Assembly: GCA_965200965.1 (NCBI GenBank)
Contig: OZ241744.1
Span: 352,001-416,000 of the forward strand
DNA: 64,000 bases
Source: an uncultured Candidatus Binatia bacterium
GTDB taxonomy: Bacteria > Desulfobacterota > Binatia > Bin18
Direction of reading: 5' to 3'
Under the pieces are notes generated by a model that worked only from the letters and a program-made list of their open reading frames with translations, was not told the origin of the DNA and did not search any database. Of the stretch, positions 3-64,000 are shown one piece after another; within the stretch, counting starts at the first letter, position 1; every line of letters begins with the position of its first letter. The translations under genes and the position numbers were made by a program.

Positions 3-134
3 GACGACCCGGACAGCCGGGTTCACGTCCTGCGCACGGCCTGGGAGAATGTGAAGGGTCTGTTCCGTCTCAAGTTCGGCGGTGTAGAAAAGGCCCGCCG
101 GCAACTGCGCGCCGTCGGCAGGGCCCAGATGTGA
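3..134 (+). CDS. C-terminal fragment of a GT2 polyprenol-phosphate glycosyltransferase (5' part outside the window)
   Basis: Frame 3 reads DDPDSRVHVLRTAWENVKGLFRLK...AQM*, resembling the DDxDSRV tail of DPM/DPG-synthase-like GT2 enzymes. Its TGA overlaps the next GTG start. Confidence 0.6.
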   Translation, partial: DDPDSRVHVLRTAWENVKGLFRLKFGGVEKARRQLRAVGRAQM

Positions 135-1576
135 CCCTCTTCCATCAAGCACATCGTGATGTGCCGCTCTTGTGGCTGGGAGTCGGATCAGGCGTACTGT
201 ATGGCGTACTGACCCGGCTGAGCTACGCTTTCGTCTATGGGCAGGGGCATCTTGAGCGTCCCATTCTTCTCTTTGTGGCGGTCTACGCCGGCATATTTGT
301 CTGCTATTGCCTGGCTGTCTGTCTGCTGCTGAGTTGTCCCGGCCAGCAGGCAGCGGGCCGGACGGTCTGGCTGATCGTGGGCTTTGGGCTGCTCTTTCGC
401 GTAACCCTGTTCTTCTCTCAGCCGATTCAGGAGGACGACTTCTACCGCTATCTGTGGGATGGCGCGGTCGTTGCCGAGGGCCTGAATCCCTACCAGTTCG
501 CCCCGCTCAGCGTCCGGCAGCCGGCGGACCCGGCCGGGACATCCCTCCAAGCCTTTGTCCGGCTCGCCGAGCAAGATGCCCGGCTGGCGTTTGTGCTGGC
601 CCGGGTTAATCATCCCCATATTCCGACCATCTATCCGCCCCTGGCTCAGGTCGTCTTTGGCCTCACCGCCTGGGTAGCGCCCGGCAGTGTGAGCGCCCTG
701 CGGCTGGTCTTTCTGGCGTGTGATCTCGGTCTGTGCGGCGTGCTGCTGGTGTTGCTGCGGCATCTGGCGCTCAGCCCGCTGCTCTTGGTGGTGTACGCCT
801 GGTCCCCGCTGGTCATTAAAGAAACCATGAACTCAACCCACTATGATGTGGTGCCGACCTTCTGCCTGGTCCTGGCCGTGGCCCTGATGGTCAAGGGCCG
901 GGGCGTGCTGGCCCAGCTCAGCTTGGCCGCCGCGGCGCTGGCCAAGCTGTATCCCCTGCTGCTCGTGCCGGCCTTCTTCGCCCGCATGTGGAAAGTCCAC
1001 GGTCAGGCTCACGCCCTGCTTGGCCTGTCCGTAGCCGGGGCAGCCCTCATTGTCGGCTACGCCCCGTTTTGGCAGGTCGGCGGGGCGCTGTGGACAGGAA
1101 CCCGCACCTTTGTTGAGCAGTGGCAGGCCAATAGCCTGATCTTTCCCGGTCTTGTGGCGGCGATGGGTGAACGCTGGCTGGCAAACGGCCTGGTCCTTGC
1201 CGTGCTGGCCTGGGCCGTGCTCCTGCTCAGTACGCGGTCACAGATGGAGGACGATCGGCAGTTTGTGGGCGGCAGTGGGCTGCTCTTGGGCGTACTGTTC
1301 CTGCTCAGCCCGGTTGGCAATCCGTGGTACTTTGTCTGTCTGGTCCCCTTTCTGACCGTGTTTCCCCGCCGCTCGGGGCTGCTCCTGTCCGGTTTGCTGT
1401 GCCTGTATTATGTGTCATTCTACTACCGCTACCGGGGCCGGCTGGAGACTTGGCATATCTGGCTGGAATATGTCCCGTTCTATGGGCTGCTGGCCTGGGA
1501 ATGGTGGCGCGGGGAGTACGCCGCCGCCGGCAGGTGGAGACCAGCCCGAGACCCTGCAACGGAGCTCAGCGCCTAG
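131..1576 (+). CDS. Polytopic GT-C-fold glycosyltransferase (GT87/DUF2029-like)
   Basis: Many hydrophobic segments; motifs EDDFYRYLWDG, NPY, TIYPP, YAWSPL, H.D, K.YP and PWY. Confidence 0.75.
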   Translation: MTLFHQAHRDVPLLWLGVGSGVLYGVLTRLSYAFVYGQGHLERPILLFVAVYAGIFVCYCLAVCLLLSCPGQQAAGRTVWLIVGFGLLFRVTLFFSQPIQEDDFYRYLWDGAVVAEGLNPYQFAPLSVRQPADPAGTSLQAFVRLAEQDARLAFVLARVNHPHIPTIYPPLAQVVFGLTAWVAPGSVSALRLVFLACDLGLCGVLLVLLRHLALSPLLLVVYAWSPLVIKETMNSTHYDVVPTFCLVLAVALMVKGRGVLAQLSLAAAALAKLYPLLLVPAFFARMWKVHGQAHALLGLSVAGAALIVGYAPFWQVGGALWTGTRTFVEQWQANSLIFPGLVAAMGERWLANGLVLAVLAWAVLLLSTRSQMEDDRQFVGGSGLLLGVLFLLSPVGNPWYFVCLVPFLTVFPRRSGLLLSGLLCLYYVSFYYRYRGRLETWHIWLEYVPFYGLLAWEWWRGEYAAAGRWRPARDPATELSA

Positions 1577-1583
1577 GCTTTCC

Positions 1584-2261
1584 ATGGGACGGACTCTGCA
1601 TATCTTGGGGCCGGCCGGAGTGCTGGCCTGTCTTGTGCTCTGTGTTGCCGGCGGGAGCCGGGCGGCTGAGCCGCCGAACCGGACAAGCCCGCTGCGCGTT
1701 GGCGGGGAGCGGGTGCAGGTCTTTGGCTGGATTTTTCCCCAGCGCTTTAATGCCGCTCACGGACCTCAGGCCGGCTATCACTTCCTGGTGTGGCAGAACG
1801 GCACATCGCCCCACGCCCTGATCCACACCCCGGTTGATGCTCTCGACTTCCACGCCGCGCTGCTGCAGCTGGGCGCACAGCCGGGCCGGCGGCTGCCACT
1901 GGCCGCCTGGAGCGGCCGGCCTGAGCATCCGGCCTCGCACCAGACCGTGACCGGCAGCCGGCTCGCCATTCGGGTCTCCTGGCCGGACAATCCCGCCGGC
2001 ATTACGCTCGATCAGGTCTTCACCCGCGGGCCTCTCAGCCTGCGCTTTGGCGGCAACCGGGACCGCTGGTTCAACCGCATCCCTTTCGCCCCCCGTCCGG
2101 GCTGCCTGGTCTGCCTGTACAGCTGCCCGAGCGGTAAGGTGAGCAATGGGGCGCTGAGTATTGCCGACTACATGGGCAGCCCAGCACGATTCAGGGCCGA
2201 TAGCGGCCGGCTCCCGCCCGATGGCACGCCGGTTGTGGTCAGCTTTGCCCTCCAGTCCTGA
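1584..2261 (+). CDS. YdjY-like exported Cys-motif protein (possible Fe-S binding)
   Basis: ATG at 1584 followed by a signal-like N-terminus; motifs FHAALLQLGAQPG, VTGS, RFGGN and GCLVCLYSCPSGKVSN. Confidence 0.65.
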   Translation: MGRTLHILGPAGVLACLVLCVAGGSRAAEPPNRTSPLRVGGERVQVFGWIFPQRFNAAHGPQAGYHFLVWQNGTSPHALIHTPVDALDFHAALLQLGAQPGRRLPLAAWSGRPEHPASHQTVTGSRLAIRVSWPDNPAGITLDQVFTRGPLSLRFGGNRDRWFNRIPFAPRPGCLVCLYSCPSGKVSNGALSIADYMGSPARFRADSGRLPPDGTPVVVSFALQS

Positions 2262-2264
2262 GCC

Positions 2265-2966
2265 ATGCCCGACCCGTTCCCCCGCCTTGCGGTCATCATT
2301 CCGGCCCTCAATGAGGAGCGTGCCTTGCCGCGTGTGCTGGCCGACCTGCCGCGCGACAGGCTTGAAGAGATTGTGGTCGTTGACAACGGCTCATCGGACA
2401 GGACAGCCGCGGTCGCCCGCGCCGGCGGGGCAAACGTGTTGCGCGAGGCGCGCCGCGGCTATGGCTGGGCGTGCCTGGCCGGCATTGCCCACCTCAGGGC
2501 CAGCCAGCCGGACATTGTGGTCTTTGTGGACGCCGATTACAGCGACCATCCAGATGAACTGCCCACTCTTATCGCCCCGATTGTCTCGGGCGAGTACGAT
2601 ATGGTGATTGGCTCGCGTACCAGGGGCGGGGCACAGCCCGGTGCCCTGCTGCCGCACGCCCGTTTTGGCAATAGCCTGGCCACCTTGTTGATACGGCTGC
2701 TGTACGGCTTTCGGTATACCGACCTGGGGCCTTTTCGGGCACTCCGTTTTCGCTCCCTGCTCGAGCTGGGCATGATGGACCGCAGCTATGGCTGGACGGT
2801 TGAGATGCAGATCAAAGCCATTCAGCACGGACTGCGGATTACCGAGGTCCCGGTGCGCTACCGCCGGCGTATTGGCGTCTCAAAGGTCAGCGGCACGCTG
2901 AAAGGTACGCTGCTGGCCGGCTCTGCCATTCTGTGGACGGTGTTTCGCTACGCCTGGAGGCGCTGA
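2265..2966 (+). CDS. GT2 glycosyltransferase (DPM1-like)
   Basis: Motifs VIIPALNEE, VVDNGSSDRT, RGYG, DAD, VIGSR, TDLGPFRA, YGWTVEMQ. Confidence 0.9.
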   Translation: MPDPFPRLAVIIPALNEERALPRVLADLPRDRLEEIVVVDNGSSDRTAAVARAGGANVLREARRGYGWACLAGIAHLRASQPDIVVFVDADYSDHPDELPTLIAPIVSGEYDMVIGSRTRGGAQPGALLPHARFGNSLATLLIRLLYGFRYTDLGPFRALRFRSLLELGMMDRSYGWTVEMQIKAIQHGLRITEVPVRYRRRIGVSKVSGTLKGTLLAGSAILWTVFRYAWRR

Positions 2967-3283
2967 TGGCCGAGACGGAATGGAATCTGGGCTTTGCCTA
3001 TGCCGAGGTCGTGACCCGGCTGGAAAAAATGCTGGAGCGTCGGCAACTCGCCTATTGTCGCCAGACAAGCGATACTGAGGTCCGCTTTGAGGTCACACTG
3101 CCGCCCGGTCGGGGCCGGGCTGAGTTGGTCGCCCGTCCGCTCGCGGCCCCGGGCCGGCCGGCCCTGCTCCAGGCTGTCCGCCAGCGGACCCTGCTGAGCA
3201 TCCGCTTTGAGGAGCTTGAGCGGCAACAGCGGTACGCCTTTATGCAGGACCTGGGCCTGGCCTTTCTGCGGGTTGGGGGCTGA
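2966..3283 (+). CDS. Hypothetical protein (105 aa) ending in Gly-Gly
   Basis: TGATG overlaps with both neighbours; GGAGG upstream; ends AFLRVGG*. Confidence 0.7.
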   Translation: MAETEWNLGFAYAEVVTRLEKMLERRQLAYCRQTSDTEVRFEVTLPPGRGRAELVARPLAAPGRPALLQAVRQRTLLSIRFEELERQQRYAFMQDLGLAFLRVGG

Positions 3284-3960
3284 TGGACATCTCGGTCATC
3301 ATCCCCACCCTGAATGAGGCGACGACGATTGCCGCCACCCTGGGCCGTGTGCGCGACAGTGGGGCGTGTGAGCTCATTGTGGTTGACGGCGGCAGCGGTG
3401 ACGGCACCCCAGAGTTGGCCCGGCCTCAGGCCGACCTGGTGCTGTCGGCCGGCCGGGGACGGGCCAGACAGATGAATGTCGGGGCCAGGGCGGCGGGCGG
3501 TCAGGTGTTGCTGTTTCTGCATGCCGATACGCTGTTGCCGCCCGACTTTCCGGCGCTGCTTGAACACGCTCTGCGTGACCCCCAGGTCGTGGGCGGCCGC
3601 TTTGATATCCGGCTCGACGCCGAGGGCTGGCCGCTTCGGATGGTGGAGACGCTGGTGAATATCCGATCTCGGCTGTCGCGGATTGCGACCGGCGATCAGG
3701 CGATTTTTGTCCGCCGGCAGACCTTCCTGGAACTGGGCGGCTATCGTGAGATCGAGCTGATGGAAGACCTGGAGCTGAGCTATCGGCTCAAGCGGCGGGG
3801 CAAGCTGACCTGCCTGCGCGAGCGGGTTGTAACCTCGGCCCGACGCTGGCAGCGGGACGGTATTGCCCGGACCATCGTGCTGATGTGGGCACTGCGCCTG
3901 CTGTATTGGGTCGGCGTGCCGCCGAAGCATCTGAAGACGTTTTATGCCGATACGCGCTAA
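3283..3960 (+). CDS. TIGR04283-type GT2 transferase (rSAM/selenodomain- or arsenosugar-cluster-associated)
   Basis: Motifs SVIIPTLNEA, GRARQMN.GA, LLFLHADT, GDQAIFVRR, LMED.EL, VTSARRW. Confidence 0.85.
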   Translation: MDISVIIPTLNEATTIAATLGRVRDSGACELIVVDGGSGDGTPELARPQADLVLSAGRGRARQMNVGARAAGGQVLLFLHADTLLPPDFPALLEHALRDPQVVGGRFDIRLDAEGWPLRMVETLVNIRSRLSRIATGDQAIFVRRQTFLELGGYREIELMEDLELSYRLKRRGKLTCLRERVVTSARRWQRDGIARTIVLMWALRLLYWVGVPPKHLKTFYADTR

Positions 3961-8423: not shown

Positions 8424-10004
8424 ATGTCTCTCTCGCCTTGCACTCGGCAAGGGTTCCTTGTCTGCATTCTGATGCTGGCACTTGGAACCCGCCTGTACGG
8501 CATAGGCTGGGGTGGGCCGTTTGTCTACCATCCCGACGAGCGCCTGGAGGTTGGCCATGCCCTGCGGATGGTGGCGACTCGAGACCTGCACCCCCACTTT
8601 TTTCTCAAGCCGACTCTGTTTCTTTACATCCAGGCGGCTGTTTTCTCTGTCGTGCAGTATGTGGCCGATACGCCTGTGTCTGAGGAAATGTACAGCCGGG
8701 GGTCTGTGTCACCGGACCCGCCGGCCTCCGCTTTCCTGTACCATTGGTGGGGCCGTTGTATCGCGGCCGTGGTCGGCGGTTTGTCGGTGCTGCTTGCGTA
8801 TGCGATAGGCCGGCGGCTCTACCATCCTGGTGTGGGCCTGTGGGCCGCGTTTTTTCTGAGCATTACGCCGCGCCACGCCCTGGAGTCGCACTACGCCGCG
8901 GTTGACGTGCCAGTGACCTGTGTGTGCCTGCTGGCCCTGTTGTTTACCGTGCGGGCTTTTCAGGCTGGGGAACGCAAAGACTGGGCCCTGGCCGGCCTGT
9001 TAGCCGGATTTGCCGCATCCACAAAGTATCCGGGCGGCCTCATCGTGCTGGCGTGTGTGGTGGCCTTGCTCCTCTCGCCCCCCCCCCCCGCACCAGGCTT
9101 TTTGACCGAACATTCCTGCTCGGCAGTGCCGGTATTGGGGCTGCATCTCTCATTGGCTTTGTGCTGGGGACCCCTTACGCCGTGCTTGATTTTTCTCAGT
9201 TCTTTTGGCATGGGATTGCCTACGAATGGAACCATTACAGCACCGGCCACCCTGGACAGGAAGGCACGGCAAATCACTGGTGGTATCTGCGCAATACCTT
9301 CTTCCACATCCTCGGACCTTCCCTAGAGCATTCCGGCCCTCGTCGGGCTTGTGCGAAGCCTGCTTCGCCCTACTCGACAGGGGTGTGTCCTCCTCAGTTT
9401 TCCTCTGCTGTACTTTCTTTTTGTCTCCTCTTTTACCGTCCGCTTTCCACGTCAGATGATGCCGCTCCTGCCGTTTGCCGCGATCTGGGGCGGGCTGGCG
9501 TGTGACATGGCCGGGCGGTGGCTGGCGGAACGCTGCCACGCCTGGGAAAAGCCGGCCTTGGAGCGATTCATCATCCCCGGGCTCGTGCTGCTCGTTGGAG
9601 TTTCGCCCTTCTGTATGGTTCTCCAGGATAGTTATCGTTTCTCTTTGCCTGATACCCGCTCTGTCGCTTCTGAGTGGATTGAGAAGAATCTTCGTAGGGG
9701 CACTCTGGTGCGTGAAGAGTTTACCCCGCAGGTACAGAATCTTCCCGTCTCACAAGTGCGCTACGATCCCTGGGGCATCGCCAAGCGGGAACTGGAGGCA
9801 TGGCGGGCAGAGGGAGTGAGATATCTGATTGTCAGTTCGTATCTATACGGGCTCTATTTTACCGACCCCGACAAGTATCACAAAGAGGTAGAAGGGTATC
9901 AGCGGATTTTTCAGCTCCCCCTGGTAGCCGAGTTTGTGCCCGGTAAGACGCTCCGGGGACCGCGTATTGGCATCTATGCGCTTGGCGAGCCAGGAGCGCG
10001 CTGA
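8424..10004 (+). pseudogene. ArnT/PMT (GT39/GT83-like) membrane glycosyltransferase with two frameshifts (real or assembly error)
   Basis: HPDE, P.L and A..TKY motifs in frame 8424. The protein continues in the 8924 frame after the C12 run at 9078-9089 (FVLGTPYAVLD), then returns to the first frame near 9325 (RFPRQMMPLLP, DTRSVASEWI). Confidence 0.75.
9078..9089 (+). repeat. C12 homopolymer at a frameshift
   Basis: Twelve consecutive C bases. Confidence 0.9.
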
Positions 10005-62812: not shown

Positions 62813-64000
62813 TCAGTCCGGCTCTGGCAGGTCATAGCTTGCGGCGGGGGCGGGGGCCGGCAGGCCGAACCAGCCCTCGGTGCGCTGGCAGACACGGACG
62901 AGCAGCAGCATGACCGGCACTTCAATCAGAACGCCGACCACGGTGGCCAGGGCCGCCGCGGAGGACAGCCCGAACAGCATGGTGGCGGTGGCGATGGCCA
63001 CCTCAAAGTGGTTTGAGGCACCGATCAGGGCGGACGGAGCGGCGTCCTGATAGGACAAGCGCAATACCCTGGCCAAGCCATAGGTAAGACCGAAGATCAG
63101 CACGGTCTGAATGAACAGCGGGATGGCGACCCACACAATCGTCAGCGGGTTGGCCACAATCACCTCACCCTTGAGCGAAAACAAGACTACCAGGGTCAGC
63201 AGCAGGGCCACGATGGTGACAGGCGTGAGCAGGGGGAGAAACCGCTGGCTGAACCAGACCTCGCCCTTGGCACCGATAATCCAGCGCCGTGACCAATACC
63301 CGGCCAGCAGCGGCAGGACGACATAGACGCCGATGGACAGCATGAGCGCCTGCCACGGGACGGGCAGCCGGCCGACCCCCAGCAGGAACCCGCCCAGCAC
63401 GCCGTACAGCACCAGCATGGTCAGCGAGTTCAGGGCCACCATGACCAGGGTCAGGCCGCTGTTGCCCTGCGCCAGATGGCCCCACACCAGGACCATCGCC
63501 GTACACGGCGCAACCCCGAGCAGGATGCAGCCGGCCAGATAGCTCCGCCACAGGGGCACGGCCAGCATCCTGACCCCATCAACCAGCACCACTTCTCCGG
63601 CCCCGTAGAAGCTGCCAACCGGCAACGACAGGCCGAGCGGCAGCTTCACATAGTCAATCGCCTCGGGGCCGATGAAGCCCCGGAACAGCACACCCAGACA
63701 CAGGGCGGCAATGGCGTACATGCTGAAGGGTTTGATCGCCCAGTTGACAAACAGCGTCAGGCCGACCGGCTTGGCGTTGCGGCTGGCGGTGGCAACCTTG
63801 GCAAAGTCAATTTTGACCATGATCGGGTACATCATGAAGAACAGACAGACCGCAATGGGAATAGAAACGACCGGAGCATTGCCAACATAGAGCGCCATGC
63901 CGTCCAGGGCAGTCGCCAGCCCGGGCACGGTCCGGCCCAGGCCAATGCCGCCAAGAATGCATAGGCCGACCCACAGGCTGAGGTAGCGTTCAAAGATGGA
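62813..64000 (-). CDS. acr3: Acr3 arsenite efflux transporter (5' end outside the window)
   Basis: Motifs FERYLS.WV, MMYPIM.K, NW.IKPF.M, APCTAMV.VW, ASNHFE.AIA, VG.L.EVP. Confidence 0.93.

What the first reader, a model, noticed from the sequence alone, without database searches (positions are those of the whole stretch)
3..3960. Coupled six-gene envelope-modification operon: three GT2, one GT-C, a YdjY-like Cys protein and a Gly-Gly protein
Seen: six co-oriented genes joined by a GTGA overlap, 7-nt and 3-nt gaps, and two TGATG overlaps. Known: DPM1-like GT2 enzymes load polyprenol-phosphate carriers that GT-C enzymes use outside the membrane. TIGR04283 transferases and YdjY-like proteins occur in rSAM/selenodomain (ArsS arsenosugar-associated) neighbourhoods, and their products are poorly defined. 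Inference: a pathway that makes an unusual (As-, S- or Se-containing) sugar and transfers it to a lipid or surface acceptor. Acr3 in the same window shows arsenic handling but is about 59 kb away and is weak support.
Basis: partly seen in the sequence, partly recalled or inferred. Interest (0 to 1): 0.7.

Follow-up and report, generated by a model that had tools for sequence, protein, structure and literature searches.

The report
Likely arsenosugar export-and-attachment operon
Five of the six genes form an operon conserved across a group of Binatia bacteria that likely takes a radical-SAM-made unusual ribose (most likely an arsenic sugar) across the membrane on a lipid carrier and attaches it to the cell envelope, which would be the still unknown last part of bacterial arsenosugar biosynthesis; the sixth gene is a recent add-on.

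Summary
The six coupled genes are real. Five (GT87, YdjY-domain protein, ArnC/DPM1-like GT2, Gly-Gly protein, TIGR04283 GT2) form a conserved core, in this order in 14 of 24 order-level relatives. The first GT2 was found in only 2 of 41 genomes. The genome, a Ca. Binatia by its relatives' titles, has ArsS, TIGR04282, DUF547 and DedA-MerA genes, all unlinked. In other lineages relatives of four core genes lie beside ArsS-system genes. No ArsM was found here, so arsenic as the element is inferred, not shown. Additions: GT87-YdjY fusions in two genomes; a PrdB-like UGA-containing gene at this locus in 11 relatives; the Gly-Gly protein models as a KA1/TBP-like fold, not ubiquitin-like. Best reading (0.45): the downstream, envelope-modifying arm of the ArsS system. 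The scan noted the YdjY-arsenosugar link before on E. coli DNA (e1-058313). New variant of a known, uncharacterised system.

The parts
3..134 (+). Last 44 codons of GT2a, a 252-aa DPM1/DPG-synthase-like GT2 (starts 624 bases before the window); recent add-on paired with a divergent GtrII-like GT-C gene
   Evidence: PF00535 83.8 bits; neighbour PF14264 24.3, under its cut-off 30; 2 of 41 genomes
131..1576 (+). GT87-family GT-C glycosyltransferase, 481 aa, at least 9 hydrophobic segments, QEDDFYRYLWDG loop motif
   Evidence: 31 bits, cut-off 25; D103 invariant in 57 of 57
1584..2261 (+). YdjY-domain protein, 225 aa, N-terminal hydrophobic segment (likely exported), GCxxCxxSCPxG motif
   Evidence: 72.3, cut-off 50; 30% to E. 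coli YdjY over 163 aa; motif in 113 of 113; one ORF with GT87 in G007 and G025
2265..2966 (+). GT2b, 233 aa, ArnC/DPM1-like; predicted polyprenyl-phosphate glycosyltransferase
   Evidence: nearest solved sequence ArnC, E 6e-11, residues 4-209
2966..3283 (+). 105-aa protein ending FLRVGG; predicted KA1/TBP-like fold
   Evidence: (Z 11.5, rmsd 2.2, 92 aligned)
3283..3960 (+). TIGR04283-family GT2, 225 aa, the only copy over cut-off in the genome

Best explanation
The five-gene core is conserved as a unit and is likely the downstream, envelope-modifying arm of the ArsS system, whose other genes are scattered over this genome. Shown here: gene content, order, family membership and repeated linkage to ArsS-system genes in other lineages. 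Inferred steps: (1) the unlinked ArsS joins a 5'-deoxyadenosyl group to dimethylarsenic, giving DDMAA, as reported for ArsS; with no ArsM found, the methylarsenical would be taken up rather than made; (2) adenine is removed and the arsenoribose activated, likely by the unlinked TIGR04282 protein (the base-removing enzyme was not identified here); (3) TIGR04283 and GT2b would move the sugar to a cytoplasmic acceptor and onto undecaprenyl phosphate; (4) a DedA or LPG-synthase-type flippase would flip it; (5) GT87 would transfer it to an outer lipid or surface glycan, helped by the exported three-cysteine YdjY protein, which would bind or redox-tune the arsenic group. The Gly-Gly protein is either a tail-activated sulfur carrier or a passenger; GT2a belongs to a separate GtrII-like pair.
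For: Core order in 14 of 24 order-level relatives. ArsS 445.8 bits (cut-off 300) and TIGR04282 194.4 (134) in the genome; ArsS in 35, TIGR04282 in 35, TIGR04283 in 39 of 41 genomes. TIGR04283 lies within about 5 kb of ArsS in 4 of 15 class-level relatives outside the order. Of 43 non-Binatia GT87 loci, 7 carry ArsS, ArsM-like, TIGR04282/3 or DUF547 genes, against 4 of 244 same-sized tiles of G000; 9 carry a GT2b relative; examples L112 GT2b-GT87-ArsM-like-04283-04282, L124 ArsS-GT2-GT87-GT2b, L128 with ArsC-Acr3. All 3 divergent YdjY loci longer than 5 kb hold ArsS, two of them also TIGR04282/3 (L285 and L286 may be one species). A second GT87 copy lies near DUF547 or TIGR04282 in 7 of 9 relatives that have one. 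ArsR-ArsI/CadI-Acr3 genes pass their cut-offs. ArsS chemistry: PMC13598754 passages.
Against: No ArsM in G000 by three family models and three protein queries; ArsM-like matches in only 22 of 41 genomes and none over the cut-off, whereas ArsS is reported to work with ArsM (PMC8552651 passage). ArsS is 2.56 Mb from the operon. 22 of 43 non-Binatia GT87 loci show none of the markers, including the four closest (35% identity). GT87 (E <= 1e-15) and YdjY were not found in 15 class-level relatives, 14 of which have ArsS and 14 TIGR04283, and 5 family members keep TIGR04283 without a whole GT87-YdjY-GT2b block, so that block is dispensable for ArsS. In Methylobacterium the TIGR04282-GT87-GT2 set goes with a different radical SAM/SPASM enzyme. 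Donor and acceptor are untested.
Confidence: 0.45

Rival explanations
1. Two neighbours, two jobs: GT2b, GT87 and YdjY add an ordinary sugar to a lipid or surface polymer (a GtrB/GtrX-type pair), and only TIGR04283 belongs to the ArsS system.
For: The GT87-YdjY-GT2b block is lost or absent while TIGR04283 stays (G016, G018, G019, G022, G023). 22 of 43 non-Binatia GT87 loci have no marker and 13 pair with a cellulose-synthase-like GT2. Envelope genes (LPG-synthase domain, sulfatase-like, GtrII-like) flank the locus.
Against: GT87, GT2b and YdjY relatives each turn up beside ArsS, ArsM-like, TIGR04282/3 or DUF547 genes in unrelated phyla and gene orders.
Confidence: 0.25
2. The operon handles a radical-SAM-derived 5'-modified ribose or thio/seleno sugar in which the heteroatom is sulfur or selenium (or an arsenosugar converted to its thio form), with the Gly-Gly protein as sulfur carrier.
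For: No ArsM found here. A PrdB-like gene with an in-frame TGA at a UxxC site lies at this locus in 11 of 24 relatives. SelD with an in-frame TGA and two ThiF/E1 enzymes are in G000. TIGR04167 is listed among selenoprotein families (PMC13188914 table passage). E. coli ydjY shares its cluster with sulfurtransferase YnjE. TBP-fold GG-tailed proteins were proposed as ubiquitin-like analogues (PMC2948915 passages).
Against: The PrdB-like gene was not found at E <= 1e-30 in this genus or genus g8. The wider family keeps only the last Gly (10 of 31 end in GG). Its other homologues sit by MoeA, glutamate-cysteine ligase or a putative AOR-MoaD operon, which fits a cofactor role unrelated to these GTs. 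ArsM-like genes lie directly upstream of ArsS in 8 relatives.
Confidence: 0.2
3. All six genes, GT2a included, act in one pathway.
For: GT2a overlaps the GT87 start by four bases.
Against: GT2a found in 2 of 41 genomes, both times with the divergent GtrII-like gene; in G007 its match carries a TAG stop and G004 keeps only a GtrII fragment.
Confidence: 0.07

Closest known systems
ArsM/ArsS arsenosugar biosynthesis (Synechocystis), with NCBIfam TIGR04282 and TIGR04283 'arsenosugar biosynthesis glycosyltransferases'
   Same: ArsS, TIGR04282 and TIGR04283 all pass their cut-offs; DUF547 and a DedA-MerA-like fusion are also in the genome.
   Different: No ArsM found; genes scattered; TIGR04283 is tied to a GT-C, an ArnC-like GT2, YdjY and a Gly-Gly protein. 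The two TIGR names are NCBIfam labels; I found no paper testing them.
Polyprenyl-phosphate GT2 / GT-C pairs (ArnC-ArnT, GtrB-GtrX, Ppm1-PimE; pairings recalled)
   Same: GT2b's nearest solved sequence is ArnC; GT87 has many hydrophobic segments and an invariant acidic loop residue.
   Different: No named family cut-off is reached; donor sugar and acceptor unknown; extra exported Cys protein.
E. coli ydjXYZ-ynjABCDE cluster
   Same: YdjY domain, 30% identical, same Cys motif.
   Different: No adjacent DedA pair, ABC transporter or rhodanese here; YdjY sits between glycosyltransferases and is fused to GT87 in two genomes.
TBP-fold Gly-Gly proteins (arCOG06308 of Makarova and Koonin; DUF1952/PF09189 as a lead)
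   Same: About 100 residues, KA1/TBP-like predicted fold, C-terminal GG.
   Different: No PF09189 match by HMM; bacterial, and tied to a glycosyltransferase rather than to an E1 or MoaD in this order.

Membership tests
TIGR04283 glycosyltransferase | Score over curated cut-off | tested here: met
   272.7 against 182 bits
YdjY domain (NF040466) | Score over cut-off and Cys motif | tested here: met
   72.3 against 50; motif in 113 of 113 homologues
GT87 / GT-C | Pfam score, polytopic membrane protein, conserved acidic loop residue | tested here: met
   31 against 25 bits; 9 hydrophobic segments; D103 invariant
Polyprenyl-phosphate GT2 (DPM1/ArnC type), for GT2b | Full-length likeness to a characterised member | tested here: inconclusive
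   ArnC E 6e-11 over residues 4-209 but all named families under cut-off
ArsM/ArsS arsenosugar pathway | ArsS radical SAM enzyme in the genome | tested here: met
   445.8 against 300 bits at C1:2916208
ArsM/ArsS arsenosugar pathway | Arsenite methyltransferase ArsM in the genome | tested here: not met
   best 55.2 of 263, 29.2 of 400, none at 1e-20; two ArsM-like queries without hit and one with a 110-aa partial hit
ArsM/ArsS arsenosugar pathway | ArsS physically linked to the glycosyltransferases | tested here: not met
   2.56 Mb apart in G000; linked in other lineages
ArsM/ArsS arsenosugar pathway | Arsenosugar or arsenolipid product | not testable with these tools
   needs LC-ICP-MS
Ubiquitin-like sulfur carrier (ThiS/MoaD) | C-terminal Gly-Gly | tested here: met
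   120 of 120 close homologues, with varied codons and also when uncoupled from the next gene
Ubiquitin-like sulfur carrier (ThiS/MoaD) | Beta-grasp fold | tested here: inconclusive
   model (pLDDT 83.8) matches KA1/TBP-like domains best, Z 11.5, rmsd 2.2, 92 aligned
DUF1952 / PF09189 | Profile match | tested here: not met
   no match; language-model score 0.83, a lead only
TBP-fold GG-tailed Ubl analogue | Activation by an E1 enzyme | not testable with these tools
   two ThiF-family genes exist, unlinked
Hopanoid glycosyltransferase HpnB | Score over cut-off | tested here: not met
   34.7, 24.8 and 18.7 against 379 bits

The most novel reading that the evidence does not exclude
These bacteria scavenge methylated arsenic, turn it into an arsenoribose with ArsS and display it on their envelope through a lipid-carrier GT2/GT-C route, with a non-ubiquitin-fold Gly-Gly carrier (and, ancestrally, a PrdB-like selenoprotein) converting it to a thio form: a cell-surface arsenoglycoconjugate pathway.
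Probability: 0.15. Interest if true: 0.85.

Novelty: new variant of a known kind. Interest (0 to 1): 0.52.

Why it matters
The step from dimethylarsenic to DDMAA is characterised, but I found no paper assigning the later steps or the final acceptor (searches; Xue 2019 could not be read). This locus reduces the candidates to a compact set and points to a periplasmic GT-C step, that is, to an envelope product rather than a soluble sugar. Keeping ArsS and the transferases without ArsM suggests use of arsenic methylated by others. The Gly-Gly protein is a bacterial test case for the proposed TBP-fold ubiquitin analogues.

Tried and rejected
Gly-Gly ending as a ribosome-binding-site artefact: rejected, codons vary and GG persists where the next gene is distant. 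GT2a as part of the core: rejected (the GT2a label for G003 is a short cross-hit on its frameshifted GT2b). LOG-family gene beside ArsS as the adenine-removing step: seen only in 4 genus members, adjacent in 1 of them; not pursued. A PNP-type phosphorylase lies in the Lichenifustis locus but had no hit in G000. YdjY fold: model pLDDT 91, no clear match (Foldseek none at E <= 0.001; best Z 5.8, rmsd 3.4, 119 aligned). No solved sequence relative for GT87 or the small protein. No RNA holder listed. No sigma-70 site upstream of GT2a. A GT87-YdjY complex prediction was never run, so binding is untested. The 575-aa membrane protein beside the G082 Gly-tail gene, called GT-C in my notebook, has no Pfam match. 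The weak G034 hit is a real homologue but follows glutamate-cysteine ligase, 2.7 kb from ArsS, so that link may be chance. Xue 2019 (PMC6467767) is not held; no supplements were read.
Full report
Observation. The window is G000:C1:352001-416000 of a one-contig, 99.3% complete genome; most of its closest relatives are titled Candidatus Binatia. GT87, YdjY and TIGR04283 pass curated cut-offs; the other two GT2s match PF00535 but no named family; the 105-aa protein matches nothing. Upstream lie a divergent GtrII-like gene, an LPG-synthase/flippase domain, a sulfatase-like protein, CysRS and acetyl-CoA synthetase, not ArsS or ArsM.

The unit. Among 24 order-level relatives whose loci I fetched, 14 have GT87-YdjY-GT2b-small-TIGR04283 in this order: 12 contiguous, and G008 and G021 with inserted genes, G008 on two contigs. 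Of 36 Binatia-type GT87 loci, 34 hold GT87, YdjY, GT2b and TIGR04283, and 33 the small gene too. These overlap with the handle genomes and are kin, not independent events; five of the 36 carry other titles and were grouped here by shared contig or gene order. GT2a was found in 2 of 41 genomes, so the conserved unit has five genes. GT87 and YdjY are one ORF in G007 and G025, with YdjY's hydrophobic leader kept as a linker, which hints at joint action.

Link to the ArsS system. G000 has ArsS, TIGR04282, DUF547 beside a DedA-MerA-like fusion and ArsR-ArsI/CadI-Acr3, all far from the operon. Over 41 genomes ArsS is in 35, TIGR04282 in 35, TIGR04283 in 39. TIGR04283 is within about 5 kb of ArsS in 4 of 15 class-level relatives, two as full clusters with ArsM-like, Pit-like, MerA-like, DedA and TIGR04282 genes. 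Of 43 non-Binatia GT87 loci, 7 carry a core ArsS-system marker, 9 a GT2b relative, 20 a GT2b or cellulose-synthase-like GT2, and 22 none; the control was 4 of 244 tiles of G000. Of 80 YdjY loci I examined 11 (10 divergent, 1 E. coli): the 3 divergent ones over 5 kb all hold ArsS, the 7 short ones show none. A second GT87 copy is near DUF547 or TIGR04282 in 7 of 9 relatives; in G000 it lies in four frame pieces at 709.3-710.6 kb before DUF547. So four core genes recur with ArsS-system genes in different arrangements, although not always.

Against a plain arsenosugar reading. No ArsM was found in G000. ArsM-like genes match in 22 of 41 genomes and lie directly upstream of ArsS in 8, so this lineage appears to have lost it while keeping ArsS and the transferases. 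GT87 and YdjY were not found in the 15 class-level relatives. The four closest non-Binatia GT87 genes have unrelated neighbours. In Methylobacterium, TIGR04282-GT87-GT2 go with a radical SAM/SPASM enzyme that has no ArsS match.

The Gly-Gly protein. 211 homologues were found; the 120 listed all end in GG. A profile search reached a wider family in which only Arg and the last Gly are invariant. The model matches KA1/TBP-like domains; grouping these hits as 'TBP-like' is recalled from SCOP. Makarova and Koonin (PMC2948915, passages) proposed TBP-fold GG proteins of Halobacteria as ubiquitin-like analogues. Homologues away from this operon lie by a MoeA pair (G015), after glutamate-cysteine ligase (G034, G041), before an LPG-synthase domain (G030 tested, G122 by likeness) or divergent from a putative AOR-oxidoreductase-MoaD operon (G082; AOR and MoaD named from recalled motifs). 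Carrier or passenger cannot be told apart here.

Selenium. A PrdB-like gene with TGA at a UxxC site (TIGR01918 68.1 of 65.45; TIGR04483 194 of 300) lies at this locus in 11 of 24 relatives and was not found in this genus or g8. G000 has SelD with an in-frame TGA and two distant PrdB-like genes elsewhere.

Mechanism. ArsS adenosylates DMAs(III) to DDMAA (PMC13598754, passages) and works with ArsM in Synechocystis (PMC8552651, passage). That GT2/GT-C pairs pass sugars outward on polyprenyl phosphate is established knowledge, recalled; GT2b's nearest solved sequence is ArnC. Joining these gives the best reading: activation of the arsenoribose, loading on undecaprenyl phosphate, flipping, and transfer by GT87 to an envelope acceptor, with YdjY's three cysteines handling the metalloid. 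Every step after gene content is inferred; 0.45. Rivals: ordinary glycosylation beside TIGR04283 (0.25), a sulfur or selenium product (0.2), a true six-gene pathway (0.07).

Literature seen. Passages only: PMC13598754, PMC8552651, PMC12159101, PMC10114718 (reference list), PMC2948915, PMC1779556, PMC13188914, bioRxiv 10.1101/2022.07.06.499078 (nothing on these genes). Searches listed no paper on TIGR04283, on this operon or on YdjY function; most subscription papers are not covered.

Verdict. A real, conserved operon and a compact variant of the known but uncharacterised ArsS-associated glycosyltransferase system. Interest 0.52.

Noticed in passing
L055:8206-9036 (G019) and 10 other family genomes: Stand-alone PrdB/GrdB-like gene with in-frame TGA (UxxC) inside this operon, between GT87 and YdjY or before the small gene/TIGR04283; lost from the locus in this genus.
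   Followed up: partly
G000:C1:709286-710564 (L150): Second GT87 copy in four frame pieces before DUF547 and a convergent DedA-MerA-like fusion; decay or assembly error not resolved.
   Followed up: partly
window 62813-64000 and G000:C1:416055-416823 (L299): Acr3 is the last gene of an ArsR-ArsI/CadI-Acr3 set, all over cut-off, suggesting exposure to organoarsenicals.
   Followed up: partly
L191:7132-10982 (Methylobacterium plasmid); similar in L136: TIGR04282-GT87-radical SAM/SPASM-GT2 cluster whose radical SAM enzyme is not ArsS; L136 adds a PNP-family phosphorylase.
   Followed up: partly
G000:C1:3479927-3480607 and 980997-981548: Two distant PrdB-like genes with TGA at the same UxxC site.
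   Followed up: no
G000:C1:349692-351293 (L001): GtrII-like membrane protein divergent from GT2a; whole in G007, fragment in G004.
   Followed up: partly
window 8424-10004: A GT-C-like membrane glycosyltransferase that seems split over two frames (8424-9326 and 9351-10004).
   Followed up: no
G000:C1:331101-336904: Large double-kinase protein and partner of different composition, resembling a defence island (recalled likeness, untested).
   Followed up: no
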